A stretch of 41,926 nucleotides of DNA from a virus, in UHGV virus genome UHGV-0116964. One strand, 5' to 3'. Position 1 is the first letter of the stretch. Every line of letters starts with the position of its first letter. Of the stretch, positions 1-16,726 are shown piece after piece. The notes under the pieces were generated by a model that was given only the letters and a program-made list of their open reading frames with translations, ran no database searches and was not told the origin of the DNA. Both the position numbers and the translations under genes were made by a program.

Positions 1-2
1 TT

Positions 3-41: not shown

Positions 42-48
42 CCATTCA

Positions 49-2877: not shown

Positions 2878-2882
2878 TCCCC

Positions 2883-5800
2883 TTATGCCTGAGTACGCAG
2901 CGCTTCAAGGCGGCGCAGGTCGAAGTCGTTCAGTTCGTCGGTGTAGTCAGCAGTGATTGGCGCTGGCCATTCACCTGTGTCGAATCCGGTTGCGATATTG
3001 CGCATCGCTTTGCGGTACTCGAGCATACCCAGCTCCAGTAGTTCAGCGGATGCCTCGATGATGGCGATCCAGTGGTAGTTCTCGTCTTTGTTGACGAAAA
3101 TCCAGAAGAACTGATCCAGCGCTGCGGTTTCGCAGTACATAGCCGCGCTCAGGTGATAATCACGTTCAATAATTTCCCGGTGTAGCCTGGCGCGCAGGCT
3201 TTCCTGCTTAACATTCCACATGCTGATGGTTTTCAGGTCAGCACCGATACGCACGCCGTCTAGGTCGATCTCAAGATCAGGGCGCACACGAACTTCCAGT
3301 CCCGTCTCCTCGTCAAAGCCAAAGTAGCTCACCTCAACGGCGCGGCTCGGGTGGGTTAGCAGCATGCCTGCGGTCGGGTGTGCCAGAAGCGCTTTTTGAA
3401 TATTCAGCGCGGTGCTCAGCTGCTGGCGGGTGACCAGCACTTTTCCTTCCGGGTTATCGCGCCAGGCATCCAGCAGTTCGTCGGCAAATACGGCATCTGG
3501 TTTGACTGCCTTCACGGCCTGGATCATGTCTGCTTTGGTACCGGACACTTTCAGTGGTGCCGGTTTCTGTGCTTCCTGAGCCACAAGGTCAGGGTTGATG
3601 ATTGCCAACTGCTCCAGCAGCGCGTCACGGCTGCCGCTGGTTTTAACCGGCGGCGGCAGGGTGGCGTTGTACTCTTTAATGCATGCCTTCATTGCCGTCG
3701 CCGTCTGCTTCTGGTCACCATCAATACGCTGGAAGTCAGCTGGCAGCGCCATATAGTTCTGTGCCGTTTCTTCCAGGTTAGCGCCAAGCGGAACCTGCGG
3801 CGGCAGGGTGGCGTTGTACTCTTCCAGTAACACCTTGATGTCGTCGGCAGACAGCAGCGCCGGCAGGCTGGCATTGTGCTCATCGATAAAGGCGCGCAGG
3901 GTCGCGGCCGTTGTGAATGCGCCTTCAGGGATCACCGGTTCAACGCTGAATTCTGCGTCCAGTAGTTCAGGCTGCAACGCCAGCGCATGCACCAAGTTGC
4001 CCATGTCCAGCACCGCTGAGCGCTCTTTGACGATGGTTTTCTCTACGTGGCGCGCATTGAAGTACATCAGCGAAACGCGCGCATCTTTCACCTGGGTTGA
4101 GCTGATGCCGTTGGCGGCGTGGTAAACCTCGTTTGGCAGCCCTTCATAGCGGCCTGGCTCGAAATAAGCGGGATAAACAACAGCTGGTTCGTCAGATTGC
4201 GCTTCTGGCTCGGTTTGTGCTGCAACTGGTTCGGTTTGGCTTACAGAATCGCTATTTTTGGCGACAGAATCCGTATTCTGGTTTACATCGTCCTTCTGGC
4301 TGGTATCTGACTCTTCACCAGACTCCAGACTGCTTTCGCCTGGCTGTACTTCATCACCAACATTTTTTTCATCACTGACAGTTTCTTGAACCTGCACATT
4401 GCTGGTGGTTTCCGTAGCCTGTTTCGTGCCATGAGTTGCTGAGTTCTGCAGTAAAGCCGTAACATCGAATATTCCGTTGCCGACATTTTTAACCAGTTCT
4501 TGTTCGGCTTTATGTGGTTGTGCTGTCGCTTCCTCTGCGCGGCGGCGTGCTTCTTCTTCACGTACGCGTTGCAGGTTCTCTTCGTGAGTGCAGAAGGATT
4601 TGCGCGGAGACTCCTTACCTTCAGGTTGGGGAATTTCCTGTGCTGCGGGTTCAGCCTCATGCAACGGCAATAACTCGACCGCGGAATTGAACGCGGCTGT
4701 CATGGTCTGGTTAACAAATTCCAGGTGAGCGACAGGAGTTAAATGAATATTTTCCGGTGCGATACGTACCAGGTTAAAAATAGCCGTGCGGTTAACACCC
4801 AGAACGCCTGGCTGATTGCGCAGGATGTTGCTCCATGATTTCCATGGTTCTTCTTTTTTGGTCACGATTTCTTTAGCGCGACGAAGAATGCTGCCCGGGA
4901 TCTCGAAGTGGTTGAAGTCCATAGGCAGAAGGGCACATGCAATCTCTAAATCGAGAGTGTCAAGGGTATGGTATGTATCAGGTCCACGGTCAGTGACGTA
5001 ACCGCCGTTGGCATTGGTTCCGGAATCAGTACGCTGCACACTACTGATGCGATTACCGGCGGCCCATTCGCGAACAAGGATACCGCGGTCGATGTGATCT
5101 GTAGCGAACCACAATTTCAAAAACTGGATTAAGGTTGCGAGTTCAGGGATTTTTCCATCGACAGGGAAGACTTTCTTAACGGCATTCACGACTTTATGAA
5201 TATCGTGCTCAATGGCTTTTTTGAATGCTTCCACATTCTCAGCTGCCAGCAGCAGGTTCTGGACGTACGCGTCATCGGTGTCCATCTCAAGGCGGACAAT
5301 CTCATTTTTCTGCCCTGCGTCGATGTGATAGAGATATTCACCATCACCGATGAACTGAGCCAGTACGCGCTGGCGGAATGGCAGGGTGGCAACAACGATC
5401 AGGTTCGGTTGCTGTGTCTGCTGGGATTGCTCTTCGGTATCGACTTCACCATCAACGACGCCACCTTCTGCCCGGCCGTTCTCGTCGGTCTGGATACCGT
5501 CCTCAACAGTGAGATCTTGACCAGTTGTAACGTCAGCAGCGTTGCTGGTTTCAGTTTTGAGCAACTGCAACTTACCACTGCGCCAGTCTTCTACCAGTTG
5601 ATTGCGGTCACCGGCATCGGTGTTCACCCAGTCAGACATGAATGCAGCGATCAATCTTGGTTCGTGCTCTTCGTCTGGTGTGAAAATGTCCTTAACCGCC
5701 CGAATCATTTTCCACTCAGCATTCAGGCTGAGTTTGGCGGTCGCGGGCACATCGTTCCTTGCCACAAGCAGGCTATGGAGATATGTATTGCCTTCATCCA

Positions 5801-6272
5801 GTGACATTTCGCTGGCAGCCAACTGCTGCTCTTTAGTGACGTGGGTTTGGTATTTATCGTTCATCAGATGGACGGCAAAGCGGACCGCTGGAGTACGGTT
5901 TTCAACCGGGACAATTTCGGACGCAGTCGCATCTTCAACGATTACGGTCGGAGTAGGTGTGTAGGGGGCGTCAACGGAACCAGTAGACACACCAGCGGCT
6001 TTTGGCAGCCAGGTGCGCCCATCGTCCTGAAGCTCGTAGCGATCACACCAGGTAAAATCAACTTCACCTTCTTTCGGCAGACCGTCGACAACTGGGAAAT
6101 CAGTGCGAATCGGTTTGGCGTAGTCCTTACCCCGACCTGTTTCGATACCTGCATCTTCCAGCGCAACATCCAGCATCAGATTGGCGCGAGCCTCGGTTTT
6201 AGCAGTGAACCAGACCACTGCATCTTGCTTTCCGGATTTCTGAGTGGCTTTAACCACATTAAAGAATTCCAT
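2883..6272 (-). CDS. recE: Exodeoxyribonuclease VIII (RecE-like) with long N-terminal extension
   Basis: 1129 aa; C-terminal ~300 aa has the RecE/lambda-Exo-like nuclease look; long acidic/low-complexity N-terminal region; gene order recE-recT as in Rac. Confidence 0.7.
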   Translation of the reverse strand: MEFFNVVKATQKSGKQDAVVWFTAKTEARANLMLDVALEDAGIETGRGKDYAKPIRTDFPVVDGLPKEGEVDFTWCDRYELQDDGRTWLPKAAGVSTGSVDAPYTPTPTVIVEDATASEIVPVENRTPAVRFAVHLMNDKYQTHVTKEQQLAASEMSLDEGNTYLHSLLVARNDVPATAKLSLNAEWKMIRAVKDIFTPDEEHEPRLIAAFMSDWVNTDAGDRNQLVEDWRSGKLQLLKTETSNAADVTTGQDLTVEDGIQTDENGRAEGGVVDGEVDTEEQSQQTQQPNLIVVATLPFRQRVLAQFIGDGEYLYHIDAGQKNEIVRLEMDTDDAYVQNLLLAAENVEAFKKAIEHDIHKVVNAVKKVFPVDGKIPELATLIQFLKLWFATDHIDRGILVREWAAGNRISSVQRTDSGTNANGGYVTDRGPDTYHTLDTLDLEIACALLPMDFNHFEIPGSILRRAKEIVTKKEEPWKSWSNILRNQPGVLGVNRTAIFNLVRIAPENIHLTPVAHLEFVNQTMTAAFNSAVELLPLHEAEPAAQEIPQPEGKESPRKSFCTHEENLQRVREEEARRRAEEATAQPHKAEQELVKNVGNGIFDVTALLQNSATHGTKQATETTSNVQVQETVSDEKNVGDEVQPGESSLESGEESDTSQKDDVNQNTDSVAKNSDSVSQTEPVAAQTEPEAQSDEPAVVYPAYFEPGRYEGLPNEVYHAANGISSTQVKDARVSLMYFNARHVEKTIVKERSAVLDMGNLVHALALQPELLDAEFSVEPVIPEGAFTTAATLRAFIDEHNASLPALLSADDIKVLLEEYNATLPPQVPLGANLEETAQNYMALPADFQRIDGDQKQTATAMKACIKEYNATLPPPVKTSGSRDALLEQLAIINPDLVAQEAQKPAPLKVSGTKADMIQAVKAVKPDAVFADELLDAWRDNPEGKVLVTRQQLSTALNIQKALLAHPTAGMLLTHPSRAVEVSYFGFDEETGLEVRVRPDLEIDLDGVRIGADLKTISMWNVKQESLRARLHREIIERDYHLSAAMYCETAALDQFFWIFVNKDENYHWIAIIEASAELLELGMLEYRKAMRNIATGFDTGEWPAPITADYTDELNDFDLRRLEALRTQA

Positions 6273-6411
6273 GTGAGATCCTCATTTTTGGGTGTTAGAA
6301 TCCCCGGACCATTGATAGCGCCCATTGGGTTAACTTTGGTTTTAATGTTGTTTCCGGTGTAACTTTGGTCGGTACCACCGGACGTAGATCCCGCCTTGCG
6401 CGGGTTTTACG

Positions 6412-6573
6412 TTAGCCTTCGTGAGCCATCTGGTCGTGCGAAGCGCAACGTTTGGAGCAATACTCTTTTTCTTTGCGCGCCAGCTGTGAGCCGTTGCGAT
6501 AGAGAAGGGTGCTCTTGATTACTTCCTCCGTTTTAACCGGCTTGCCGCAATATCCGCATTTCTTGTCTAACAT
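6412..6573 (-). CDS. Small zinc-binding protein (YdaE-like), 53 aa, absent from the ORF track
   Basis: My own translation: MLDKKCGYCGKPVKTEEVIKSTLLYRNGSQLARKEKEYCSKRCASHDQMAHEG; CxxC...CxxxC pairs; GGAGG SD 6 nt upstream; same slot as ydaE next to recE in Rac. Confidence 0.45.
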   Translation of the reverse strand: MLDKKCGYCGKPVKTEEVIKSTLLYRNGSQLARKEKEYCSKRCASHDQMAHEG

Positions 6574-6584
6574 GACATCCTCCG

Positions 6585-6791
6585 CTAGTGGCTGAGTCCA
6601 TGCCCCAGACCGTTCAGATAAACTTCAACCAGCAAATCCTTGGTGTAAGTCATTTCTACGCCGCGATGCAGATACAAACGTCCGCGAGCGTTAGCTGATG
6701 CCGTCCAGGTTGAGTCTTTGTGTTTGACGAGCATCCCCGGCTGAACTGCGCCGCGGTTTACTGTCTGTGTACCGTAGTGCTGATGAACCAT
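6585..6791 (-). CDS. Small early protein at the Kil position, 68 aa (track ORF extends to 6935 via a TTG start)
   Basis: Internal ATG at 6791 preceded by GGAGAA; first gene downstream of the OL-like operator; function not recognised. Confidence 0.4.
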   Translation of the reverse strand: MVHQHYGTQTVNRGAVQPGMLVKHKDSTWTASANARGRLYLHRGVEMTYTKDLLVEVYLNGLGHGLSH

Positions 6792-7036
6792 GATGTTCTC
6801 CAGTTTTTCTGAGTGAACTTCGCTGGTGGTGCCGCGGCGCTGATCTTCACGGTTGAGCGTTTTAACTCTGCAATTCACCACCGCGAAGCTCACTCTGTGC
6901 TTTGCCCTTGTCGCCAGGCTGGCGGAACGTTTCAAACCTACTGCGCGTTAATCTCACCACCTCATTCCGGTCTTCGTATGCCCCGGACGGCTTCTTCGTG
7001 GGCGTCCTGCTTTGGTGGTTGTGTTGATGGAGTAAT

Positions 7037-7072
7037 TAAACACAATGTTTATTTGCGTGTCAACATAATGAG
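7037..7072. promoter_or_regulatory. OL-like operator pair (TAAACACAATGTTTA ... CAACATAATG)
   Basis: Palindrome TAAACA-CAA-TGTTTA is near-identical to the OR site TAAACA-TAA-TGTTTA at about 9107; the two cores are 23 bp apart at both loci. Confidence 0.5.
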
Positions 7073-7175
7073 TGTTTTTATATAAACAAAAAGTTTAGTT
7101 GGTTGCGCTCGTTGGCACGAGTAGTATGTTTTATGGTCTATTTTGTGGTTATAAAAAAATCGATGAGGGTGAGTT

Positions 7176-7382
7176 ATGGATCGTGACGAACTGGAAGAAG
7201 ACCGCGCAGCGTTTATTGCGGGGGAGATTGGTGGCGCAGTTGTCAGTCTGATAGCTAACGGGATTGTGATCAGCCGCGATGCGATTGTGGATAGTCTAGA
7301 GGCTAAGCGCAGGGTAGTGGGAAACGTCATTCACAAGTGGGTATTGCGGGATGCGGTTGCTATGGTGAGAAAAGGGCAATAA
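7176..7382 (+). CDS. Hypothetical 68 aa protein, convergent with the cassette
   Basis: Track ORF with GAGGGTGAG SD; ends in the shared bidirectional terminator; no recognised domain. Confidence 0.5.
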   Translation: MDRDELEEDRAAFIAGEIGGAVVSLIANGIVISRDAIVDSLEAKRRVVGNVIHKWVLRDAVAMVRKGQ

Positions 7383-7412
7383 AAAACCCAGTTCGGTAAC
7401 TGGGTTATTGCT
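7381..7412. terminator. Bidirectional intrinsic terminator
   Basis: AACCCAGTT-CGGT-AACTGGGTT hairpin flanked by an A-run upstream and T-rich downstream; strongest on the minus strand, directly after cassette gene A. Confidence 0.6.
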
Positions 7413-7838
7413 TTATTCAACAGATGATGGGGGGGTCGGTGCTTTCTTAAAGATCGACCACTGAGAAATGTAGGTCAGCAACCTTGAGCTTAACTCGAGT
7501 TCTTTTCGTAATATTTCGTCATAACGTTTTTTTGCTGCTTGCATGGTCGCATCACTAGCGTGATTGTCATCCATAATGATCTTTAGCCTTTTCTTTTCTC
7601 GGCTTGAGCATATTGTAAATAACAGACCTGTAAATGACATTCCACCAAAATCCTTTAACGTTTTGATTACAAAAAGAAGAATCAAAGACAGAAAAGGAAC
7701 AGATCTGTAGGCCCAATCACGAAACTCACCGTCAGGAAAGAAGATAGGAATAGCATCTGTAGCATAACCACATATGAGGGAGACAATTAGAAAAGGTAGT
7801 CCATTTTTAGCTACATTTTTAACGTTATCGTTAGCCAT
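7413..7838 (-). CDS. Cassette gene A: ~141 aa membrane protein (hydrophobic N-terminal half, charged helical C-terminal tail)
   Basis: Track ORF 7413..7871; the ATG at 7838 has a GGGAAA SD and overlaps the gene B stop (ATGGCTAA); AT-rich codon usage. Confidence 0.6.
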   Translation of the reverse strand: MANDNVKNVAKNGLPFLIVSLICGYATDAIPIFFPDGEFRDWAYRSVPFLSLILLFVIKTLKDFGGMSFTGLLFTICSSREKKRLKIIMDDNHASDATMQAAKKRYDEILRKELELSSRLLTYISQWSIFKKAPTPPSSVE

Positions 7839-8214
7839 GATTTTTTCCCGAGAACGATTTCGAGTCAACATGTAACTTTTGTGTTTTGACTACATAATAC
7901 GCAAATCCAATCTTAACTAACCAATAAGCTACTGGTATGAGTGCTGCGTAAAGAGGGATATAGTACATAACCTTACCTCCTGTTAACCACACTATAACAC
8001 CTAGCATCACTATTAGCGCGACAGAAAATGCTTTCAGCCCAACACAGCTATCAGGATGTGAAACACTGTTCCTTAGCAACAATATCCTGGATTCATCAAG
8101 TGTGTAAGGAATATCGCCAACATGATTTTCGATTTTTGGGAAGGTCTCAAATACTTCAACCCGATCAATCGAAATAATTGAGCTTGATTGATGATCTAAG
8201 CAAACTGCAGCCAC
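7831..8214 (-). CDS. Cassette gene B: 127 aa protein with soluble N-terminal part and two C-terminal hydrophobic helices
   Basis: Track ORF; GTG start with GAGGG SD, 2 nt after the gene C stop; AT-rich. Confidence 0.6.
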   Translation of the reverse strand: MAAVCLDHQSSSIISIDRVEVFETFPKIENHVGDIPYTLDESRILLLRNSVSHPDSCVGLKAFSVALIVMLGVIVWLTGGKVMYYIPLYAALIPVAYWLVKIGFAYYVVKTQKLHVDSKSFSGKNHG

Positions 8215-8216
8215 TG

Positions 8217-8540
8217 TTATCCCTCTCGAACCTTTAGTGATACTCGGTTAGCAGCAAATGTGGCAATGAAACCACATTCTACACATATAACAGGGAATGC
8301 CCATATACCTCGGCCAGCTGAATGAGGTAGAGGAAGGGTAATTATTGCAGGATAGTCTTGACTATCTTCTCGTGGAGGAACTCCCCAAAGCGTATGCTTA
8401 CAAAGCGGACAGGCCATCTCGCCATGTTTTTCTTCGAGGCGTTGAAAATAATCTCGAAATTCTTGTCTTGATATTGATAGCGTCAATGCTGTTGTATTGA
8501 CACTTTCCTGACTTTTTTCTTCTTCAACCTGTTCGCCCAT
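8217..8540 (-). CDS. Cassette gene C: ~107 aa zinc-ribbon-like protein (CPLC...CVEC)
   Basis: Track ORF 8217..8552 (TTG start); internal ATG at 8540 with GAGAG SD; two CxxC pairs; acidic N-terminus. Confidence 0.55.
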   Translation of the reverse strand: MGEQVEEEKSQESVNTTALTLSISRQEFRDYFQRLEEKHGEMACPLCKHTLWGVPPREDSQDYPAIITLPLPHSAGRGIWAFPVICVECGFIATFAANRVSLKVREG

Positions 8541-8651
8541 CTCAGCTCTCAATATAATGATAATTAACTGGTAAGTGAATTTTGCATATCGTTAAGATGT
8601 ATCCCATTGGTACAGAAACATCTGAGGGGTAAGTAGCTTTTAACTACCGTG

Positions 8652-9047
8652 CTACTCACCATCCCCCTTAATCCGCCGTCCCATGTACTTGGCGTACAGT
8701 TCATCGAGTTCTTTCAACCGTAGAGATACGATCCGCAACATGTTCTGTTGTTCTTCTTCGTTTGGGAGTTGATTATAGAGTTCCAACAGTCTCCGTTCGT
8801 CGTGTCTCAAACCGTCCTTAGCATCCACGTCCTGACCTAGAACCCACTCAAGACTTACGCCTAGCGCATCGGCAAGTTTTATTGCTGAGCTTTTTCCTAT
8901 CGCTCCTCTGACAAACCAGTTGTTGACTGATTGTGCGCTCACACCACAGATTCTCGCTATATCCGCTTTGGATATGCGCTTCTTCTCGATGATTTCATTT
9001 AACCGCCGAACCTGCGGGTTATCTGTTTGGTGTGTGTTTTTTCTCAT
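8652..9047 (-). CDS. Prophage repressor, DicA/RacR-like HTH (XRE family)
   Basis: 131 aa; N-terminal HTH (ISKADIARICGVSAQSVNNW); C-terminal LLELYNQLPNEEE resembles the DicA tail; divergent from a cro-like gene across operator palindromes. Confidence 0.8.
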   Translation of the reverse strand: MRKNTHQTDNPQVRRLNEIIEKKRISKADIARICGVSAQSVNNWFVRGAIGKSSAIKLADALGVSLEWVLGQDVDAKDGLRHDERRLLELYNQLPNEEEQQNMLRIVSLRLKELDELYAKYMGRRIKGDGE

Positions 9048-9080
9048 ATATCAAGATTCTAAACTAAAAGTTTATCGCCT

Positions 9081-9121
9081 CAACATTCATAATGTTGACT
9101 TGAACATAAACATAATGTTTA
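9081..9121. promoter_or_regulatory. OR-like operator pair with divergent promoters
   Basis: CAACAT-tcata-ATGTTG (about 9081..9097) and TAAACA-TAA-TGTTTA (about 9107..9121); TTGACT -35 at about 9095 for the rightward promoter; TAGAAT -10 on the minus strand 7 nt before the repressor ATG (near-leaderless). Confidence 0.55.
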
Positions 9122-9150
9122 ATTTGGTTCGTTATTACTTGGAGCCAAAT

Positions 9151-9384
9151 ATGAAAGCACTTGATAAAGCAATATGCATCGTAGGGGGTGCAACCCGTTT
9201 AGCAGAAAAGCTCAATGTATCCCCAATGACGGTCAGTCACTGGCGTCACCGTGACAATGGATTCGTACCGGCTAACCGTGTCATTCCTATTTTCAATGCT
9301 ACAGGTGTAACTCCACATGAGTTACGCCCTGATTTGTACCTCAACCCTACGGATGGATTACCGGCTCAGGAAGCGAGGGCATAA
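9151..9384 (+). CDS. Cro-like HTH regulator (YdaS-type)
   Basis: 77 aa from the ATG at 9151 (GGAG SD); MKALDKAICIVGGATRLAEKLNVS...GFVPA pattern; divergent from the repressor. Confidence 0.7.
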   Translation: MKALDKAICIVGGATRLAEKLNVSPMTVSHWRHRDNGFVPANRVIPIFNATGVTPHELRPDLYLNPTDGLPAQEARA

Positions 9385-9386
9385 CC

Positions 9387-9926
9387 ATGCAGTCACTATC
9401 ACTTCATCAAAATAGCGGATATCAAACGGCTGCGATGATAAATCGCAATCAACCTGTCTCGGTAGATAAACATGACCAGATCCGCGATGCCGTTCGTGCG
9501 TGGGCGGGTGTAGATGGTCAGGATGTCGTTTCTGCTCTGATCATCGAAGAGTACCAGGCTCAAGGGGGAGACGAGATCACTTTCCCTGATGACCTCAGCC
9601 GACAGCGTCAGAAGCTTTTCCGCTTTCTGGATAACCATTTCAACAGCGAACGGTACCGCGAAAACGTTCGCCAGCTGACTCCGGCAATCCTCGCTGTCCT
9701 GCCGATTGAATACCGCAATCGTCTGCTACCAGAAGACAACGTAATGGCTCGTCTGGCAAGGCTGGAGAAGGAAACCAGCGAAGCGAAGATTGCTGTCGCA
9801 ATGGATGCGCCACGTCATCAGAAGCTGAAAGAGTTGAGCGAGGGGATCGTGGAGATGTATCGCGTTGACCCTGGGTTAACCGGTCCGTTGATGGAAATGG
9901 TGCAGATTATGCTGGGGGCTATATGA
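9387..9926 (+). CDS. YdaT-like (CII-position) protein
   Basis: 179 aa; immediately follows the YdaS-like gene as in Rac; family assignment from memory only. Confidence 0.5.
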   Translation: MQSLSLHQNSGYQTAAMINRNQPVSVDKHDQIRDAVRAWAGVDGQDVVSALIIEEYQAQGGDEITFPDDLSRQRQKLFRFLDNHFNSERYRENVRQLTPAILAVLPIEYRNRLLPEDNVMARLARLEKETSEAKIAVAMDAPRHQKLKELSEGIVEMYRVDPGLTGPLMEMVQIMLGAI

Positions 9927-10010
9927 CCGGTTCAAAAATGGCGAAAGCCGCGGTGCTCGAACACCAACGGCTTTCAGGTGCAAAAACAGTGCGTAATTGC
10001 GGAGAACAGT

Positions 10011-10919
10011 ATGTCAAACACCGCTGAAATAATCAATTTCCCAAATAAAACCGAACAACCGGGAGGTCGTATGGCCGACCTGTCGAACGGGTATACCAAG
10101 GTCGCTAACGAGATCCAACAGCTTAAGCCTCGCCTGAGACTGTCAGGCCGGGAATGGCAATGTTTTGAGGCGGTGATCTGGCTTACCTACGGCTGGAACA
10201 AGAAACAGGACCGCGTGACAAATACGGTTATTGCCGAGCTTACGGGCCTGAGCGATACGCATGTATCGGACGCGCTTAAGTCTCTCGCAGAACGCAAAAT
10301 CATCTTTTCACAGAAGCAGGGCATGATGAAAATCGTCGGTGTAAACACTGACCTTTCAGCATGGATTTTAGACAAACCGGAAACGGGAAGAAAATTCCCG
10401 AAAACGGGAAAATCCTTCCCGAAATCAGGAATAACCTTCCCGAAAACGGTAGACACCCAATACAAGAACAAGAACAGTATTAAAAGATCTTCGTCCGAGA
10501 ATTCTGACGAATCCTCTGACGCACGTCTGAAGAAATTTTTATCAACTCATCCTGAAGCTGCGGTCTACACACCATCCGGTGCGAAGTGGGGCTCTGCTGA
10601 AGACCTCGAGACAGCTAAGTGGATTTCCTCCAGGGTGAAGCTGATTAACCCAACCTGCAAAGCCCCGGACATGACCTCCTGGTCTAACACTGTTCGCCTG
10701 ATGCGCCAGATAGACGACCGGTCGCACCAGGACATCTGCGCGCTGTATGACTGGGCTAGCAAACACCACTTCTGGCAGACCAACATCCTGAGTCCCGAAA
10801 GCCTGCGTAAGCAGTGGGACAAGCTGACAATGCAGCGTAACGCCGGAGGTGAGCAGCGCGCTGTCAAGCCAGATCTGGACTTCAACAACACTGACTGGGC
10901 CTATGGGGTGATCCGATGA
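10011..10919 (+). CDS. Replication initiator O (lambda O-like)
   Basis: Track ORF 9978..10919; from the ATG at 10011 (GGAGAA SD) the N-terminus MSNTAEIINF...ADLSNGY matches lambda O MTNTAKILNF...ADLDDGY; iterons embedded in the gene. Confidence 0.8.
   Translation: MSNTAEIINFPNKTEQPGGRMADLSNGYTKVANEIQQLKPRLRLSGREWQCFEAVIWLTYGWNKKQDRVTNTVIAELTGLSDTHVSDALKSLAERKIIFSQKQGMMKIVGVNTDLSAWILDKPETGRKFPKTGKSFPKSGITFPKTVDTQYKNKNSIKRSSSENSDESSDARLKKFLSTHPEAAVYTPSGAKWGSAEDLETAKWISSRVKLINPTCKAPDMTSWSNTVRLMRQIDDRSHQDICALYDWASKHHFWQTNILSPESLRKQWDKLTMQRNAGGEQRAVKPDLDFNNTDWAYGVIR
10377..10454 (+). repeat. Origin iterons: four copies of TTCCCGAAAACGGGAA-like units at 21-bp spacing, followed by an AT-rich stretch
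   Basis: Units at about 10377, 10395, 10416, 10437; encode the FPKTG peptide repeats in O; same arrangement as lambda ori inside O. Confidence 0.6.
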
Positions 10920-11605
10920 AATCTCTTGCAGAGCAGATGCGTAACCACGACCGCGAGCAGATGAGCCGCATGGCCCATAACCTGCCAGAGCAGTACCAGG
11001 AGTGCGCGCCGGTCGAGCAGGTGGCGCAGGTATTCAACAAGCTGTTCAACGAGCTGCGCGCCGCGTTCCCGGCCAGCATGGCGAACTTCCGCACCCAGGA
11101 AGACCTGAACGAATTCCGCCGTCAGTGGCTGCTGGCGTTTCAGGAGAACGGGATCCACACCATGGCTCAGGTCGATGCCGGCATGCGCATTGCCCGCCGC
11201 CAGGAGCGCCCATTCCTGCCGTCGCCGGGCCAGTTCGTCGCCTGGTGCAAGCAGAGCGGCGGCGCGCTGGGCGTCAACGTTGACCAGGTGATCGCCGAAT
11301 ACTGGGACTGGCGTAACCGCTCGTTCGAATTCATCTCCAGCGAGCAATTTCCATGGTCGCAGCCGGTCATGTACCACATTTGCGTAGAATTGCGCCACCG
11401 CAGCACCGAGCGCCAGTTAACGCATGGTGAACTGGCACGCGAGGCAGGCGATCTGCTGGACATGTGGGAAAGGCGCGTCACCGAGGGTAAGCCAGTGCCG
11501 CCGGTACGCCGGGCTATTGCCGCACCAGCTGCCGAGCAAGGGCCGACGCCGATCCAGCTGCTGCTGGCCAAGTACAACCGCAACAAGTCGAACGGGATGG
11601 TGTGA
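10916..11605 (+). CDS. Replication protein P (helicase loader, lambda P-like)
   Basis: 229 aa; MKSLAEQMRNHDREQM...RPFLPSPGQFVAWC is near-identical in pattern to lambda P; ATGA overlap with O. Confidence 0.85.
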   Translation: MKSLAEQMRNHDREQMSRMAHNLPEQYQECAPVEQVAQVFNKLFNELRAAFPASMANFRTQEDLNEFRRQWLLAFQENGIHTMAQVDAGMRIARRQERPFLPSPGQFVAWCKQSGGALGVNVDQVIAEYWDWRNRSFEFISSEQFPWSQPVMYHICVELRHRSTERQLTHGELAREAGDLLDMWERRVTEGKPVPPVRRAIAAPAAEQGPTPIQLLLAKYNRNKSNGMV

Positions 11606-11664
11606 CATGAACATAACAATCCGTGAGCAGGTGCTGGCAGCCCTGCGCAACAACCCAGGGTTGA

Positions 11665-11847
11665 ACAACGCCAAACTGGCAGGGCTTCCCGGAGTGGTAC
11701 ATCATCGATCAGGACTATCGGGGGCAGAAGTACGCGAAGGACAAGCAGGTTGCGCGTTGTGGCAACGCAGTTCCGCCGCCATTCGCCGAGGCACTGGTGA
11801 GGGCTAATTTACCGGAGCTTTGTCAGCAGAAAGAGATCGCAGCTTAA
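11665..11847 (+). pseudogene. C-terminal fragment of a C5-cytosine DNA methyltransferase (motif IX-X remnant)
   Basis: One frame reads ...NWQGFPEWYIIDQDYRGQKYAKDKQVARCGNAVPPPFAEALVRANLPELCQQKEIAA*, matching QGFPD...GNAV; no N-terminal catalytic part upstream (abuts P). Confidence 0.4.
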
Positions 11848-11946
11848 TGTCCGAGTTTCAGAACATGGTGTAACAAATCCTGCTACTTCAATGACGTAGA
11901 TTCAAACCTGATATAATTAGGCTCTTCACAACACGAGGAGCCTAAA

Positions 11947-12183
11947 ATGCACCATTACATGATCCCTATCAACGGAACTGTTCACCTGATCAAGACTGAC
12001 TCTCTAATCCCTGAAGGGACTGAGTATAGCTTTGAAGGAGAAAGTCTAATCTGCGCTCATGCCACTTTTAAATCTGGGACGTATGGCTTCCTGATACCAA
12101 AGGGAAATCAGTTGAATAGAGAGCATGCGTTCTGGCATGTAAGTGGAATTCACCCTAATCCCCTGGGAATGGATAAATCGTAA
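11947..12183 (+). CDS. Hypothetical 78 aa protein (AT-rich insert between the two methyltransferase-tail repeats)
   Basis: Track ORF; no recognised domain. Confidence 0.4.
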   Translation: MHHYMIPINGTVHLIKTDSLIPEGTEYSFEGESLICAHATFKSGTYGFLIPKGNQLNREHAFWHVSGIHPNPLGMDKS

Positions 12184-12299
12184 TCCATAATATGCATGCC
12201 ATCGTCCTGAACATACGGTGGCATGCATCCGGCACTACAACAGAAACGTTAAAGTGCAAACAATACAATTCGAGCAATATTCAACCTGTCACAGATGGC

Positions 12300-12428
12300 G
12301 AATACCACCGCCATTTCGTGCATTCTGTGGTTTCTATTACCCATTGCGTTAATGCTGTCCAATCATCAGCTCGCTGAGGCGCTGGTTAGGGCTAACCTAC
12401 AGGAGCTTTGTCAGCAGAAACAAATAGC
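12300..12428 (+). pseudogene. Second, frameshifted copy of the methyltransferase C-terminal tail
   Basis: The 3' ~55 bp (...EALVRANLQELCQQKQIAA*) is a diverged direct repeat of 11790..11847; upstream HCVNAV resembles GNAV but in another frame. Confidence 0.35.
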
Positions 12429-12452
12429 GGCGTAATAAAACATCGCTAATTC

Positions 12453-12480
12453 AACCCGCTACGGCGGGTTTTCTTTTTTT
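12453..12480 (+). terminator. Intrinsic terminator
   Basis: AACCCGC-TACG-GCGGGTT hairpin followed by TTCTTTTTTT. Confidence 0.7.
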
Positions 12481-12542
12481 ACTACTGACAGAAAATTAAC
12501 AATTTGTGCTCTTAAAGCGTTGATCATTTCCGCGCATAGGTA

Positions 12543-12562
12543 TACTGTATAAAAACACAGTA
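12543..12562. promoter_or_regulatory. LexA (SOS) box TACTGTATAAAAACACAGTA
   Basis: CTGT-N8-ACAG; overlaps a candidate promoter (TTGATC ... TATACT) about 20 nt upstream of the dinI-like gene. Confidence 0.7.
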
Positions 12563-12580
12563 AATGCAATGGGGGCCATT

Positions 12581-12814
12581 ATGAAAGTTGAATTAACCAT
12601 TGATCGCATGAAAGAACTTCCTAAAGGCGCAGTACCAGCACTGGAGAAAGAACTGCTTAAGCGCCTGAATGATCACTATGACAATTGCAGGCTCACAATC
12701 CGCCGTGCCGGGGCCGATGGGTTAAGTGTTTTTGGTGGTGACAAGGACGATAAAAAGAAAATTGAATCAATCCTCCAGGATACCTGGGAAAGCGCTGACG
12801 ACTGGTTTTATTAG
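12581..12814 (+). CDS. dinI: DinI-like protein
   Basis: 77 aa from the ATG at 12581; C-terminal ESILQDTWESADDWF matches E. coli DinI (SEILQETWESADDWF); LexA box upstream. Confidence 0.85.
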   Translation: MKVELTIDRMKELPKGAVPALEKELLKRLNDHYDNCRLTIRRAGADGLSVFGGDKDDKKKIESILQDTWESADDWFY

Positions 12815-12931
12815 AATTGCGCTTAAGGCTGGCGCGCATTTTTCAGAATACCGCAATTTGCGTAACCCTCTGATGCTGCTGCCGACAATCTTTAATCGCG
12901 TCTGTTAGTCGCTCGAAGGGAGAACATAAAT

Positions 12932-13180
12932 GTGAGTGATTCAGCTTTGCAAACGTCAGAAGACAACTGGTATGACATTGTAAGAAGGTCTGACGGCTGC
13001 GTGGTGTTTAGCTTTCCTTCATCGGGCAGGCATCTAATTTATCGCGTCAATGGCATGGTTTCTATGCGGCCTTTGCTGGATGATGAAGAGGTCTTTACTC
13101 CTAATGGTTTTATGCAGTTTATTCACCGTCTCGGCTACCGGGTAACCCCACCTTCTGATAATATGAAATCAACGGTCTGA
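12932..13180 (+). CDS. Hypothetical protein
   Basis: Track ORF (GTG start); no recognised domain. Confidence 0.4.
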   Translation: MSDSALQTSEDNWYDIVRRSDGCVVFSFPSSGRHLIYRVNGMVSMRPLLDDEEVFTPNGFMQFIHRLGYRVTPPSDNMKSTV

Positions 13181-13214
13181 ACAACCGTAACCTACTGCGC
13201 CACGGAGAGAAACC

Positions 13215-13814
13215 ATGGCGCACGAACTACAACTCATCAAGCATTCCTCAGGAATCCTGATCCCCGCTACGCCGGAGACCAGTGATTTACTGCAATCAAA
13301 AATCAAACTCGGCTCCGTACTGGTGGCTGAGTTCCGGCAGGTACGCAACCCGGCCTTTCACCGTCGTTTCTTCGCGTTACTCAATCTCGGTTTCGAATAC
13401 TGGGAACCCACCGGCGGGGCAATCTCCTCCAACGAACGCAAGCTGGTAACCGGCTATGCCAAGTTCCTTGCCTCATTCGCGGGAAGTGAAGCAGCACTCC
13501 TGGATGCTGCTGAGCAATATCTGGACCGCATCGCCGATAAGCGTACTGGTAGCATCTGCGCCTGTAAGTCATTCGATGCATATCGTGCATGGGTCACTAT
13601 TGAGTCCGGCCATTACGACGCCATTCAGCTGCCTGACGGCACCCTCCGCAAACATCCCCGCAGTATCTCATTCGCAAATATGGATGAAACTGAGTTCCAG
13701 CAGCTGTACAAAGCCGCGCTCGATGTTCTGTGGCGATGGATACTCTCCCGATCATTTCGCAGTTGTGAAGAGGCAGAAAACGCCGCCGCCCAGCTGATGA
13801 GCTTTGCGGGGTGA
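13215..13814 (+). CDS. Conserved phage protein of unknown function (nin-region)
   Basis: 199 aa track ORF. Confidence 0.55.
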   Translation: MAHELQLIKHSSGILIPATPETSDLLQSKIKLGSVLVAEFRQVRNPAFHRRFFALLNLGFEYWEPTGGAISSNERKLVTGYAKFLASFAGSEAALLDAAEQYLDRIADKRTGSICACKSFDAYRAWVTIESGHYDAIQLPDGTLRKHPRSISFANMDETEFQQLYKAALDVLWRWILSRSFRSCEEAENAAAQLMSFAG

Positions 13815-14020
13815 TGGCGATGAAATTTTCCTGGTTCCACCATCACGAATGCACCACCGAACAGGCCGACGAGCTGGTGGAGAAATACCGGGCGCGCGGT
13901 GTAAAGACAGAGCGCAGCCTGAATCGCGACAACATCACCTGGACCGTCAGCGCGCAATTGCCGGAAGGCGATAACGCGCCTCGCCCGAGCCGGGTATGGC
14001 AAAGCAAGGCGTGGGGGTGA
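13811..14020 (+). CDS. Hypothetical small protein
   Basis: Track ORF, ATGA-coupled to the upstream gene. Confidence 0.4.
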   Translation: MMAMKFSWFHHHECTTEQADELVEKYRARGVKTERSLNRDNITWTVSAQLPEGDNAPRPSRVWQSKAWG

Positions 14021-14022
14021 GC

Positions 14023-14313
14023 ATGGCAAATTTACGCAAAGAGGCTCGTGGTCGTGATTGTCAGGTTCGAATTCCCGGCGTCTGCAACGGTAACCCGGAA
14101 ACGTCTGTACTGGCGCACATTCGCCTGGCCGGGTTATGTGGCACCGGAATCAAACCGCCTGATCTGATTGCCACCATTGCATGCTCTGCCTGTCACGACG
14201 AGATCGACCGCCGTACACATTTTGTCGATGCTGAGTATGCTAAAGAATGCGCGCTGGAAGGTATGGCGAGAACGCAGGTTATCTGGCTGAAAGAGGGGGT
14301 AATCAAGGCGTGA
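14023..14313 (+). CDS. YbcO-like cysteine-rich putative nuclease
   Basis: ~96 aa from the ATG at 14023 (GTGGGGG SD); [13 protein letters not shown]...[11 protein letters not shown] cysteine pattern; sits just before rusA as in DLP12. Confidence 0.6.
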
Positions 14314-14672
14314 ATACTTACAACATCACATTGCCCTGGCCGCCGAGCAATAACCGCTACTACCGCCATAATCGCGGGCGCACGCACATCAGCGCAGAAG
14401 GGCAGGCATACCGCGATAACGTCGCCCGAATCATTAAAAACGCAATGCTGGATATCGGTCTGGCTATGCCTGTGAAAATCCGCATTGAGTGCCACATGCC
14501 GGATCGCCGTCGCCGTGACCTGGATAATCTGCAAAAGGCCGCTTTTGACGCACTCACCAAAGCAGGTTTCTGGCTGGACGATGCTCAGGTCGTTGATTAT
14601 CGCGTTGTGAAGATGCCCGTTACCAAAGGTGGAAAGCTGGAACTGACAATCACCGGGCTGGAGGCCGTATGA
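14310..14672 (+). CDS. rusA: Holliday junction resolvase RusA
   Basis: GTG start; [35 protein letters not shown]...[28 protein letters not shown] is near-identical to E. coli RusA. Confidence 0.9.
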
Positions 14673-14805
14673 CATTTGAATCCTGTTTTTCCGATCACCT
14701 CCGCGTTCGCTGGCAGCGGCTTCGCTTATACCACTTTCCCGGCTCTGTGCTAACGGACTACCGGATACTGAAGAATTACGTGAAAACTTATGCTGGAGAA
14801 GCGCT

Positions 14806-15588
14806 ATGAACCTTGAAAACACAGTGAAATACCACTTCGCTAAATCCACACTGATTAGCGATTCTCCGCGCGCTACCGCCTCCGATTCACTGACCGGTAC
14901 CGACATAATGGCTGCCATGGGCATGACGCAGGAACGCGCCGCAATGGGTTACAGCGCCTTCCTCGGCAAGATGGGCATAAGCAATAACGACCGGGATCGG
15001 GCGATCGGTCTGCTGGCTGAGTACGCGATGACAAAATGCGACAAGGTTGCCGCACTGCGTAAGCTCGGTGCCGCGGTTAAACCTCAGGTGATGCACCAGT
15101 TGGCCACCTTCGCTTTTGAGGACTATTCCCGCAGCGCTGCCAGCGTGAAGCAGTGCGATTGTTGTGACGGTCAGGGCTTCATTGAGGCTGACGTGTTTAC
15201 CAATAAATTCCGTAAGCCAGAAGGGAAAATGACCGTGTCCGGGATGGTGAAGGTCAAAGAATCCATCAAAGTGCTATGCAAAAAGTGTAATGGCTCTGGT
15301 GTGGTTAGTGCTTCTTGCAGTGATTGCCATGGGCGCGGCAAGGCAGTGAACCAGGCTCTTACTGAGAAACAGGGCGTTCCTGTTCTGGCTGACTGTAAGC
15401 GCTGCGGAGGGCGTGGGTATGAACGACTTCCGTCGACTGAAGCCTATGCTGCTGTATGCCAGATTACTGACGCCATTAGCCTGGACACCTGGAAAAAGTC
15501 TGTTAAGCCATTCTACGACCTGCTGATCACGAAATTTGATATCGAAGAGTCCTGGGCCGAAAAACAGCTTAAGCAGATAACGCGGTAA
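14806..15588 (+). CDS. Late-gene antiterminator Q-like protein with four CxxCxGxG zinc-finger repeats
   Basis: 260 aa; position between rusA and the lysis genes; followed by a terminator about 100 nt downstream. Confidence 0.6.
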   Translation: MNLENTVKYHFAKSTLISDSPRATASDSLTGTDIMAAMGMTQERAAMGYSAFLGKMGISNNDRDRAIGLLAEYAMTKCDKVAALRKLGAAVKPQVMHQLATFAFEDYSRSAASVKQCDCCDGQGFIEADVFTNKFRKPEGKMTVSGMVKVKESIKVLCKKCNGSGVVSASCSDCHGRGKAVNQALTEKQGVPVLADCKRCGGRGYERLPSTEAYAAVCQITDAISLDTWKKSVKPFYDLLITKFDIEESWAEKQLKQITR

Positions 15589-15687
15589 CGCCTATAGCGA
15601 TAGCCTATGATTTTGTCTTGGGCTATTTACTTTTCCCGAATCTGTGTTAATTTTGTCCCAACGATGGGTTAATGCCTTCGTTTCAAG

Positions 15688-15715
15688 CCCTGCGGATAAC
15701 ACCGTGGGGTTTTTT
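15688..15715 (+). terminator. tR'-like intrinsic terminator downstream of Q
   Basis: CCCTGCGG-ATAACA-CCGTGGGG (two GU pairs) followed by TTTTTT. Confidence 0.5.
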
Positions 15716-15792
15716 GCGTTTCTGGAGACAGCAATACCAAGGTTCGAGACATTCAGGTAAAATTGATGCATTACAGGATGTGAGGTTGGGGA

Positions 15793-16362
15793 ATGAATAA
15801 TCTACCCGATGATTACTTTTTGGATGCGGACGACGAACTCGTTGCTTTTCTGGAGAAGCAGGGCGAGGATTGTATACGCGAAATTCACCAGTCCAACGCA
15901 CTAAACAAAGAAAATGGCCAGAAGTTATTGAGTATACTCATTGCTGGCGTGGGCTCGTCATTTTTGTTATTAACGCAACGTACAGGTTTTGATTACCTCA
16001 CCGCTGGAATGTCTGTTTTTTTAGTCTACTGGGCAATGTGTGCGGCTTATCTTGTTCGCTGCGTCCTCGTTGTAAGGTCACGAGCTCTCGTGTCATCGAC
16101 ACCCTATGCGCTTTACCATGATGGCTATAAAGGGTTTACTGAAGATGATTACACTGGTTTTGAGTCGAAAGGATTTTCAGGAAAGCGTTCAACATTGAAC
16201 GTCTTGCGGCGCTACCGGCTTGCGGATTTAACCAGAATGGCTGAAATGAGTAAAAAAGAGAATGCCAGAATAGGCCGAGAACTAGAAAGGGTAAGGATCG
16301 CTACAATCCTCACCCCTGTTTGTGCACTTGTAATCTCAGTACTTACTTACCTTTTTTTCTGA
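15793..16362 (+). CDS. Cargo membrane protein (3 predicted TM helices) at the Q-lysis junction
   Basis: 189 aa track ORF; AT-richer than neighbours; no recognised domain. Confidence 0.5.
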   Translation: MNNLPDDYFLDADDELVAFLEKQGEDCIREIHQSNALNKENGQKLLSILIAGVGSSFLLLTQRTGFDYLTAGMSVFLVYWAMCAAYLVRCVLVVRSRALVSSTPYALYHDGYKGFTEDDYTGFESKGFSGKRSTLNVLRRYRLADLTRMAEMSKKENARIGRELERVRIATILTPVCALVISVLTYLFF

Positions 16363-16492
16363 TGTTTTCAGCAGAATCGGCAACAAAGGTATAACCTGTC
16401 CTCAGATTTCTTTCGGCTGGCTGTGGAGCCGGTTTAGGCTGTGGTGCGGGTTGAGGCTTATTTTCTCCAGATGGTTTGTTTGATTCACTCAT
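16343..16492 (-). CDS. Small proline-rich ORF (49 aa), antisense, absent from the ORF track
   Basis: My translation: MSESNKPSGENKPQPAPQPKPAPQPAERNLRTGYTFVADSAENIRKKGK; GGAGAA SD 5 nt upstream; 3' end overlaps the 189 aa gene. Confidence 0.35.
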   Translation of the reverse strand: MSESNKPSGENKPQPAPQPKPAPQPAERNLRTGYTFVADSAENIRKKGK

Positions 16493-16584
16493 ATAATTCT
16501 CCATGTTTGATAGGGTTATTTTTGGCGATTTAACGATATCAAATACAGTGATTTGCTGCTAGAGCATGCACTTATCTATAACTC

Positions 16585-16610
16585 GCCCCGGCACCCGCTG
16601 GGGCTTTTTT
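16585..16610 (+). terminator. Intrinsic terminator
   Basis: GCCCCGG-CACCCG-CTGGGGC hairpin followed by TTTTTT. Confidence 0.55.
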
Positions 16611-16726
16611 ATTTCCGGCTCACGGTAATCATCCGCTACGTGCTTTGTTGATAAATCCAACCCGTGAAGCCTGAGCCTATTTCCCCTCATACCTGAGAGG
16701 ACTCACAGCAATTAAGAGGGGGCTAA

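What the first reader, a model, noticed from the sequence alone, without database searches (positions are those of the whole stretch)
10377..10500. Replication origin iterons embedded in the O gene
Four units resembling TTCCCGAAAACGGGAA (each an inverted repeat) recur at 21-bp spacing inside the O-like gene, followed by an AT-rich stretch, as in lambda ori. At the protein level they encode the FPKTG peptide repeats in the O linker.
Basis: seen in the sequence. Interest (0 to 1): 0.4.

Follow-up and report, generated by a model that had tools for sequence, protein, structure and literature searches.

The report
Phage phi80-type replication origin, already known
The repeats are the replication origin of a lambda-like phage, sitting inside its own initiator gene; the sequence is base-for-base identical to the long-known origin of phage phi80, so it is real but ordinary.

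Summary
Four 16-bp units lie at exact 21-bp spacing (starts 10374, 10395, 10416, 10437). The two inner units are good 6+4+6 palindromes (TTCCCG-AAAA-CGGGAA) and the two outer half-sites are degenerate. An A-rich, low-GC stretch follows at 10453-10490. All of it lies inside a lambda-O-family initiator gene (10011-10919), and a lambda-P-family gene follows directly (10916-11605). In frame, the units encode KPETGRK/FPKTGKS/FPKSGIT/FPKTVDT just after the Pfam O domain.

Window 10341-10560 is 100% identical to phage phi80 gene 15. The phi80 GenBank record annotates four gp15-binding sites at exactly these positions.

All 29 diverged relatives with a readable array (27 prophage loci from the genome scan plus phages PHB10 and Meifeng) keep the repeats at 21-bp steps. 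Twenty-eight show all four units. The cut contig L033 shows three strong units and a weak first. L032 has a 1-bp deletion that truncates O.

Synonymous variation collapses about 20-fold across the iterons and AT-rich stretch (0.40 to 0.02), although the encoded peptide is less conserved than the DNA-binding domain. So the DNA, not the peptide, is under selection.

Inferred mechanism: initiator dimers bind the iterons, the A-rich stretch unwinds, and the P-like protein delivers DnaB. Novelty: already known. Interest is low.

The parts
10011..10919 (+). Initiator gene, lambda O family (phi80 gene 15 type), 302 aa. The true start is ATG 10011, with GGAG at 10001-10004, not the GTG at 9978 given by the mechanical ORF list.
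   Evidence: ORF. Pfam Phage_rep_O, E 5.9e-25. 99.7% identical to phi80 gene 15 and 99.8% to mEp237 O. The phi80 CDS start maps to 10011. 39% identical to lambda O.
10374..10389 (.). Iteron 1, AAACCGGAAACGGGAA. The left half-site is degenerate, and it is degenerate in every relative.
   Evidence: Coincides with phi80 'protein_bind gp15' at L001 2874-2888.
10395..10410 (.). Iteron 2, TTCCCGAAAACGGGAA, a perfect 6+4+6 palindrome.
   Evidence: Coincides with phi80 'protein_bind gp15' at L001 2894-2909.
10416..10431 (.). Iteron 3, TTCCCGAAATCAGGAA.
   Evidence: Coincides with phi80 'protein_bind gp15' at L001 2915-2930.
10437..10452 (.). Iteron 4, TTCCCGAAAACGGTAG. The right half-site is degenerate, and it is degenerate in nearly every relative.
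   Evidence: Coincides with phi80 'protein_bind gp15' at L001 2936-2950.
10453..10490 (.). A-rich, low-GC stretch; the inferred site of first strand opening.
   Evidence: GC 0.32 and 53% A on the top strand. Synonymous variation is almost nil in relatives. Occupies the same position as lambda's A+T-rich region.
10490..10520 (.). Conserved right-hand segment of the origin, shared with lambda (CTTCGTCCGAGAATTCTGACGAATCCTCTGA).
   Evidence: 100% megablast matches to lambda-type phages over query 513-543, which is window 10490-10520 (H19-H25). Aligns with lambda. Synonymous variation is reduced, 0.16 against 0.40.
10916..11605 (+). Helicase-loader gene, lambda P family (phi80 gene 14 type), overlapping the O stop codon.
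   Evidence: Pfam Phage_lambda_P, E 1.9e-49. 47% identical to lambda P. Annotated as protein 14 / P in phi80 and mEp237.
9095..9123 (+). Candidate rightward early promoter (pR-like), TTGACT-17-TTTAAT. It would transcribe cro-like, cII-like, O and P, and so run through the origin.
   Evidence: Read by eye. Not called by the consensus scan, which requires A at position 2 of the -10 hexamer. Inferred only.

Best explanation
This is the phage's theta-replication origin, of the phi80 specificity type, embedded in its own initiator gene.

Inferred mechanism, by homology with lambda:
1. Dimers of the O-like initiator bind, through the N-terminal winged-helix-type domain, to the four dyad-symmetric sites. 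The exact 21-bp spacing (two helical turns) puts them on one face of the helix.
2. The phased A-tracts and the bound protein bend or wrap the DNA into an 'O-some'.
3. On supercoiled DNA, the stress opens the adjacent A-rich stretch (10453-10490).
4. The C-terminal half of O recruits the P-like protein carrying host DnaB helicase to the opened DNA. Host chaperones then release DnaB.
5. Rightward transcription from the early promoter supplies O and P and activates the origin.

Shown here: the anatomy, the identity to phi80, the family membership of both genes, and DNA-level purifying selection on the site.
Inferred: binding, bending, unwinding, helicase loading and transcriptional activation.
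For: (1) Identity. Window 10341-10560 is 100% identical to phi80 and mEp237. The whole O gene is 99.7-99.8% identical to those of the plaque-forming phages phi80, HK225 and mEp237. The four units coincide with the four 'protein_bind gp15' features of JX871397.

(2) Genes. O family and P family by Pfam, and by pairwise comparison with lambda O and P.

(3) Same architecture as the annotated lambda ori: four 18-bp dyad-symmetric iterons inside O, an A-rich stretch, then a shared right-hand segment.

(4) Conservation. All 29 relatives with a readable array (27 prophage loci plus PHB10 and Meifeng; Enterobacter, Klebsiella, Pectobacterium, Morganella, Xenorhabdus, Photobacterium and others; 71-99% protein identity) keep the array in the same place at 21-bp steps. 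Twenty-eight show four units.

(5) DNA-level constraint. Synonymous pair diversity is 0.404 in codons 1-121 and 0.438 in codons 171-302. It is 0.020 in the iteron codons 122-148 (Mann-Whitney p 7e-13) and 0.023 in the AT-rich codons 149-159 (p 3e-7). Amino-acid conservation in those segments is lower than in the N-terminal domain, 0.82 and 0.80 against 0.90. The four-fold codons CCG, ACG and GGA inside the units are essentially invariant.

(6) Where the site does change, it changes at the cost of the peptide. In Morganella and Photobacterium, TTC>TTA (F>L) and GGA>GTA (G>V) turn FPKTG into LPKTV while keeping the dyad TTACCG-N4-CGGTAA.

(7) A-tracts in the array are phased near 10.5 bp; 0 of 2000 shuffles reach the AA power at that period. 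This fits the intrinsic bend described for lambda iterons (PMC5043065).

(8) Mechanism of the family. [quoted passage not shown] Two iterons plus the AT-rich tract are the minimal unit for unwinding (PMC7466680).
Against: Binding, unwinding and origin firing are inferred from homology and from an annotation.

I could not open the primary phi80 papers (Grosschedl & Hobom 1979; Moore et al. 1979; Rotman et al. 2012). I therefore cannot say whether gp15 binding to these four sites was ever footprinted, or only inferred from comparison with lambda.

The AT-rich stretch is milder than lambda's (GC 0.32 against 0.21). The consensus promoter scan did not call a rightward promoter upstream.
Confidence: 0.93

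Rival explanations
1. The repeat is a protein feature only. On this view a heptad-repeat linker (FPKTGKS)n in the O protein arose by duplication, and the DNA has no cis-acting role.
For: The units are in codon phase 0 and encode a 7-residue peptide repeat rich in P, K, T and G. The segment lies between the two conserved halves of O.
Against: Synonymous sites are about 20 times less variable here than in the rest of the gene, while the amino acids are more variable. That is the opposite of what selection on the protein gives. Relatives change F>L and G>V but keep the DNA dyad. The same constraint continues into the non-repetitive A-rich stretch. The same sites are annotated as gp15-binding in phi80.
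Confidence: 0.02
2. The palindromes act as RNA or single-strand hairpins, such as an attenuator or terminator in the O mRNA or in an antisense transcript, rather than as protein-binding sites in duplex DNA.
For: The RNA of 10365-10465 folds at -32.8 kcal/mol, z = -5.15. Unit 2 read on the minus strand is scored as a terminator-like hairpin plus T-run.
Against: Any array of palindromes gives such a z-score. Terminator-like hits in the region are at chance level, 4 found against 3.5 expected. Across 25 distinct arrays, arm positions change on one side without compensation. In unit 3, pair 3/14 is A:G in 7 arrays and pair 5/12 is C:A in 7. The outer arms of units 1 and 4 are invariably non-complementary yet invariant. 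That fits half-site recognition, not a stem. No Rfam family matches the window.
Confidence: 0.02
3. The origin sequence is intact but belongs to a replication module that is not used in this element. Either it is a cryptic or defective prophage, or the mosaic phage relies on another origin.
For: The window is a mosaic of an mEp237-like early region and an Omnitron/SEN34-like late region. Defective copies do exist in relatives: L032 has a frameshift inside the array. The same segment also persists in the phi80 remnant of DH5alpha.
Against: O and P are full-length open reading frames, 99.7-99.8% identical to those of plaque-forming phages. The repressor, cro-like, cII-like, O and P gene order is complete. 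No second initiator was seen near the module, but the rest of the window was not searched for one.
Confidence: 0.04

Closest known systems
ori of bacteriophage phi80 (inside gene 15; records X13065 and JX871397)
   Same: Identical sequence over at least 220 bp, including all four sites, the A-rich stretch and the right-hand segment. Same host gene (99.7%) and same downstream gene 14.
   Different: Nothing within the origin. The surrounding phage differs. Upstream of base 10001 the window follows mEp237, not phi80. It has a different immunity region, with YdaS/YdaT-type cro-like and cII-like genes, and unrelated late genes.
ori-lambda (four iterons ITN1-4, 39034-39118, plus the A+T-rich region, inside gene O)
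   Same: Position inside the initiator gene at the domain boundary (residues 122-149 here, about 117-145 in lambda). Four dyad-symmetric sites with a central A4. An A-rich stretch on the P-proximal side. A homologous right-hand segment containing GAGAATTCTG. A P-family gene downstream.
   Different: The half-site sequence differs: TTCCCG/CGGGAA here against ATCCCTC/GAGGGA in lambda. The site is 16 bp rather than 18-19 bp. Spacing is a strict 21 bp, against 20, 24 and 23 bp in lambda. The AT-rich stretch is less extreme. The N-terminal half of O is diverged accordingly. From my own knowledge (Furth & Yates 1978, not opened here), lambda-phi80 hybrids showed that origin specificity follows the N-terminal half of O.
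Origins of Shiga-toxin phages 933W and P27
   Same: Lambda-type origin inside O, with iterons plus an AT-rich tract (PMC7466680).
   Different: Those origins have six lambda-type iterons. This one has four of the phi80 type.
Iteron origins of plasmids (P1, F, R6K, RK2, pSC101)
   Same: An array of initiator-binding repeats phased with the helix next to an A+T-rich region (PMC5043065).
   Different: Plasmid iterons are asymmetric direct repeats bound by initiator monomers and lie outside the initiator gene. Here the sites are dyad-symmetric and lie inside the gene.

Membership tests
Lambdoid phage origin (ori-lambda type) | Lies inside the O-family initiator gene, at the junction between the N-terminal DNA-binding part and the C-terminal part. 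| tested here: met
   Phage_rep_O covers residues 20-118 of the 302-aa protein. The repeats encode residues 122-149. The C-terminal half aligns with lambda O.
Lambdoid phage origin (ori-lambda type) | An array of about four repeated 16-19-bp sites, each with internal dyad symmetry. | tested here: met
   Four units at 21-bp steps. The inner two have 6/6 and 5/6 complementary arms, and the outer half-sites are degenerate.
Lambdoid phage origin (ori-lambda type) | An A+T-rich, strand-asymmetric stretch directly to the right of the last iteron. | tested here: met
   10453-10490 has GC 0.32 and 53% A on the top strand, in the lowest 2% of 38-nt windows for GC. It is weaker than lambda's 0.21.
Lambdoid phage origin (ori-lambda type) | A right-hand segment homologous to that of lambda ori. 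| tested here: met
   10490-10520 is 100% identical to lambda-type phages (H19-H25) and aligns with lambda 39160-39190.
Lambdoid phage origin (ori-lambda type) | A P-family helicase-loader gene immediately downstream of O. | tested here: met
   PF06992, E 1.9e-49. 47% identical to lambda P. Its start overlaps the O stop codon.
Lambdoid phage origin (ori-lambda type) | Rightward early transcription (pR) running through or near the origin. | tested here: inconclusive
   The gene order (repressor on the minus strand, then cro-like, cII-like, O and P on the plus strand) fits. TTGACT-17-TTTAAT at 9095-9123 was seen by eye, but the consensus scan did not call it.
Lambdoid phage origin (ori-lambda type) | The cis-acting DNA is itself under selection, not only the encoded protein. 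| tested here: met
   Synonymous diversity is 0.02 in the origin against 0.40-0.44 in the flanks, across 28 distinct sequences.
Lambdoid phage origin (ori-lambda type) | The cognate O protein binds the iterons, and the fragment supports O/P-dependent replication. | not testable with these tools
   This needs footprinting and a replication assay. Only the 'protein_bind gp15' annotation in JX871397 is available.
phi80 specificity type of lambdoid origin | Sequence identity with phi80 gene 15 and its four annotated gp15 sites. | tested here: met
   100% identity over 220 bp. The sites map to 10375-10389, 10395-10410, 10416-10431 and 10437-10451.
Plasmid-type iteron origin (monomer-binding direct repeats) | Asymmetric direct repeats bound by initiator monomers, located outside the initiator coding sequence. 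| tested here: not met
   The units are dyad-symmetric and lie inside the coding sequence. The review PMC5043065 draws this contrast.

The most novel reading that the evidence does not exclude
Within this phi80-type family there may be a natural specificity sub-variant. The Morganella (L030) and Photobacterium (L033) copies carry a symmetric change in both half-sites of most of their units (TTCCCG..CGGGAA to TTACCG..CGGTAA). They also carry substitutions in the helix-turn-helix region of the initiator (E76D, S81N, D87N, Q101R). If the two are coupled, this would be a minimal co-evolved initiator/iteron pair, useful for mapping which residue reads base 3/14. A second unexplained regularity is that the outermost half-sites are degenerate yet invariant in all relatives, which hints at a required asymmetry of the complex.
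Probability: 0.15. Interest if true: 0.25.

Novelty: already known. Interest (0 to 1): 0.1.

Why it matters
It matters little as a discovery. The phi80 origin was sequenced in the late 1970s and is annotated in GenBank, and the same segment sits in 126 of 5426 complete E. coli genomes, including DH5alpha.

It is useful for annotating this window. It fixes the origin, the true start of the initiator gene, and the replication-specificity type (phi80 type, not lambda type) of a mosaic phage whose late genes are unrelated to phi80.

The comparative result is a clean textbook illustration of a cis-element embedded in a coding sequence: synonymous variation drops about 20-fold exactly over iterons plus AT-rich stretch, while the peptide drifts. 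It also delimits the functional origin to about 10374-10520.

Tried and rejected
- Rfam scan of the whole window: no hit. No described RNA family explains the palindromes, and no oop-type model matched upstream of O.
- RNA folding of the array gave z = -5.15. I rejected this as evidence for an RNA element. Palindromic arrays fold by construction, and arm changes in relatives are uncompensated.
- The terminator-like hit on the minus strand at unit 2 was rejected, because the count in the region is at chance level.
- Two 3-mismatch matches to the iteron elsewhere in the window (24201, 28670) are isolated, weak single matches with no repeat array around them. I did not take them as extra binding sites.
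- The phi80 genome paper could not be opened by PMC id or DOI. The Lula paper says nothing about the origin. A search for 'gene 15 / gene 14' gave nothing relevant.
- PDB sequence search with the initiator gave only a marginal match (E 0.0088) to an unrelated metal-dependent regulator's helix-turn-helix. No solved structure of this family is available to model the contacts.

Full report
**What is in the sequence**

Reading 10200-10700 and tabulating it in 21-nt register gives four units:
- 10374-10389 AAACCGGAAACGGGAA
- 10395-10410 TTCCCGAAAACGGGAA
- 10416-10431 TTCCCGAAATCAGGAA
- 10437-10452 TTCCCGAAAACGGTAG

The start-to-start spacing is exactly 21 bp. Unit 2 is a perfect 6+4+6 palindrome and unit 3 has 5 of 6 arm pairs. 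Unit 1 has a degenerate left arm and unit 4 a degenerate right arm. The neighbouring registers match the unit at only 3-4 of 16 positions, so the array has four members.

Tandem Repeats Finder reports period 21, 3.5 copies, score 90, and the repeat finder reports the same family. The 16-mer with up to 3 mismatches is found 5 times in 41.9 kb, against 0.42 expected. No shuffle out of 100 reached 5, and the three best matches are these.

Directly after unit 4, 10453-10490 has GC 0.32 and 53% A on the top strand. Only 2% and 0.4% of 38-nt windows of the window are as extreme.

**The gene that holds it**

The mechanical ORF is 9978-10919. The real start is ATG 10011, preceded by GGAG. This is where phi80 gene 15 starts once its record is mapped onto the window, and it gives a 302-aa protein.

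Pfam places Phage_rep_O (E 5.9e-25) on residues 20-118 of that protein. The protein is 39% identical to lambda O end to end. The next gene, 10916-11605, overlaps the O stop codon. It is Phage_lambda_P (E 1.9e-49) and 47% identical to lambda P.

Upstream lie an HTH repressor on the minus strand, a YdaS-type cro-like gene and a YdaT-type cII-like gene. This is the lambdoid early-right operon order.

The units start in codon phase 0 and encode KPETGRK, FPKTGKS, FPKSGIT and FPKTVDT at residues 122-149.

**What it is**

Megablast of the O gene against phage records finds mEp237 (99.8%, full length), phi80 (99.7%) and HK225 (99.5%). An alignment of 10340-10560 with phi80 and mEp237 is identical over the shared stretch, window 10341-10560.

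The phi80 genome record JX871397 carries four 'protein_bind gp15' features inside gene 15 ('similar to lambda O'), followed by gene 14 ('similar to lambda P'). With the offset fixed (window = locus + 7501), they fall at 10375-10389, 10395-10410, 10416-10431 and 10437-10451. These are exactly the four units. The finding is therefore the origin of replication of phi80 type, already described and annotated.

**Comparison with lambda**

NC_001416 annotates four 18-bp iterons at 39034-39118 inside O: ATCCCTCAAAACGAGGGA and variants, spaced 20, 24 and 23 bp. They are followed by a 42-nt stretch of GC 0.21 and 62% A.

The window has the same order of parts at the same place in the protein, but a different half-site (TTCCCG against ATCCCTC) and strict 21-bp phasing. 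To the right of the A-rich stretch, the two phages share TCGTC.GAGAATTCTG.CGAATCCTCTGAC. That piece is 100% identical to several lambda-type phages (H19-H25).

So the specificity part differs and the right-hand part is common. This matches the known modular structure of lambdoid origins. From my own knowledge (Furth & Yates 1978; Grosschedl & Hobom 1979; Moore et al. 1979; not opened here), lambda-phi80 hybrid O proteins showed that origin recognition follows the N-terminal half of O and P interaction the C-terminal half.

One scan of one-genome-per-species contigs with the N-terminal 170 residues returned 27 prophage loci, at 71-99% protein identity. They come from Enterobacter, Klebsiella, Citrobacter, Kluyvera, Pectobacterium, Pantoea, Yokenella, Morganella, Xenorhabdus, Photobacterium and others. 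Two diverged phages, PHB10 and Hafnia phage Meifeng, were added.

All 29 show the array in the same place at 21-bp steps:
- 28 show four units.
- The 569-bp contig L033 shows three strong units and a weak first.
- L032 has one 20-bp step, which is a frameshift that truncates O. It is evidently a decaying copy.

The repeats are thus not absent in related O genes.

**DNA or protein?**

I aligned 28 distinct sequences by codon. For each column I measured how often two sequences that share the majority amino acid use different codons.

| Codons | Segment | Synonymous diversity | p vs N-domain |
|---|---|---|---|
| 1-121 | N-terminal domain | 0.404 | reference |
| 122-148 | iterons | 0.020 | 7e-13 |
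| 149-159 | A-rich stretch | 0.023 | 3e-7 |
| 160-170 | right-hand segment | 0.159 | 0.0055 |
| 171-302 | C-terminal part | 0.438 | not lower |

The four-fold codons CCG, ACG and GGA inside the units are invariant in 26-28 of 28 sequences. Four-fold codons just upstream use three or four codons each.

Amino-acid conservation runs the other way: 0.90 in the N-domain, 0.82 in the iterons and 0.80 in the A-rich part. The Morganella and Photobacterium copies even turn FPKTG into LPKTV while keeping a dyad TTACCG-N4-CGGTAA.

Selection therefore acts on the DNA sequence, over about 10374-10520. That is what a cis-acting origin embedded in a gene predicts, and it excludes the 'peptide repeat only' reading.

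**Details of the site**

Across 25 distinct arrays, the core CCG (positions 4-6) and CGG (11-13) are nearly invariant. Position 3 tolerates C or A, and its mirror position 14 tolerates G or T. Positions 7 and 10 in the spacer vary.

The left arm of unit 1 (AAACCG) and the right arm of unit 4 (CGGTAG) are degenerate in all relatives, yet invariant as such.

A-tracts in the array recur near every 10.5 bp; 0 of 2000 shuffles reach the AA power at that period. This fits the intrinsic bend reported for lambda iterons (PMC5043065).

**Mechanism (inferred)**

For lambda, the reviews read here state the following:
- The iterons bind O dimers.
- O binding to supercoiled DNA opens the neighbouring ~40-bp A+T-rich region.
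- The iteron DNA is bent and bends further on binding.
- Two iterons plus the AT-rich tract are the minimal unit for unwinding, and the AT-rich tract is dispensable for O binding (PMC7466680; PMC3349717).

By homology of both proteins and of the site architecture, the same sequence of events is the best explanation here.

**Rivals**

An RNA-hairpin role is suggested only by a fold z-score of -5.15 and one terminator-like hit on the minus strand. Both are automatic consequences of palindromes. Terminator-like hits in the region are at chance level, arm changes in relatives are uncompensated, and no Rfam family matches.

A 'silent remnant' reading cannot be excluded by sequence alone. However, O and P are intact and nearly identical to those of plaque-forming phages.

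**Context**

The window is a mosaic. Bases 1-16683 resemble the early region of mEp237 and HK225. Bases 18714-41822 resemble Citrobacter phage Omnitron and SEN34-type late genes. The same origin segment is present in 126 of 5426 complete E. coli genomes, including DH5alpha, which carries a phi80 remnant.

**Verdict**

The feature is the already known phi80-type lambdoid origin. Interest is low. The only mildly new items are the quantitative synonymous-site footprint that delimits the origin, and a possible half-site and initiator sub-variant in one lineage.

Noticed in passing
window 9082-9123: The intergenic region between the divergent repressor (8652-9047, minus strand) and the YdaS-type cro-like gene (9151-9384) holds a pR-like promoter, TTGACT(9095-9100)-17-TTTAAT(9118-9123). 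It also holds two copies of CATAATGTT (9088-9096, 9111-9119) that look like operators. The consensus scan missed the promoter.
   Followed up: partly
window 9944-9979: A strong hairpin lies between the cII-like gene and the O start (minus-strand RNA 9935-10005 folds at -26.9 kcal/mol, z -3.76). It sits where phi80 has M3 RNA and lambda has oop, but it has no sequence similarity to either and is identical in mEp237. A minus-strand promoter-like site lies at 9935-9906. There is no Rfam hit.
   Followed up: partly
window 9151-9926: The cro and cII positions are occupied by YdaS-family (E 7.6e-16) and YdaT-family (E 1.9e-25) proteins, not by lambda-type Cro and CII. So a phi80-type replication module is joined to a different immunity module.
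   Followed up: no
whole window: The genome is a mosaic. Bases 1-16683 are about 97% identical to mEp237 and HK225 early genes. Bases 18714-41822 are 96-99% identical to Citrobacter phage Omnitron and resemble SEN34-type myovirus late genes. The window length (41926) nearly equals the Omnitron record (41923).
   Followed up: partly
L032 1864-1941 (Kluyvera genomosp. 3): A one-base deletion inside the iteron array (a 20-bp step between units 2 and 3) frameshifts and truncates O at residue 146. This looks like a decaying prophage copy.
   Followed up: yes
L027 about 1949-2010 (Pectobacterium odoriferum): The O gene diverges completely from all the others just after the A-rich stretch, and the gene is shorter (807 nt). 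This looks like a recombination joint at the origin that swaps the C-terminal half.
   Followed up: no
L030 1376-1454 (Morganella morganii); L033 231-309 (Photobacterium indicum): The iterons carry a symmetric half-site change (TTACCG-N4-CGGTAA). The initiator carries substitutions E76D, S81N, D87N and Q101R. This is a single lineage, and single TTACCG half-sites also occur in relatives without these substitutions.
   Followed up: partly
window 4235-4277, 16419-16458, 26875-26928: Other short tandem repeats were reported by Tandem Repeats Finder: period 21 x 2.0, period 18 x 2.2 and period 21 x 2.6. They were not examined.
   Followed up: no
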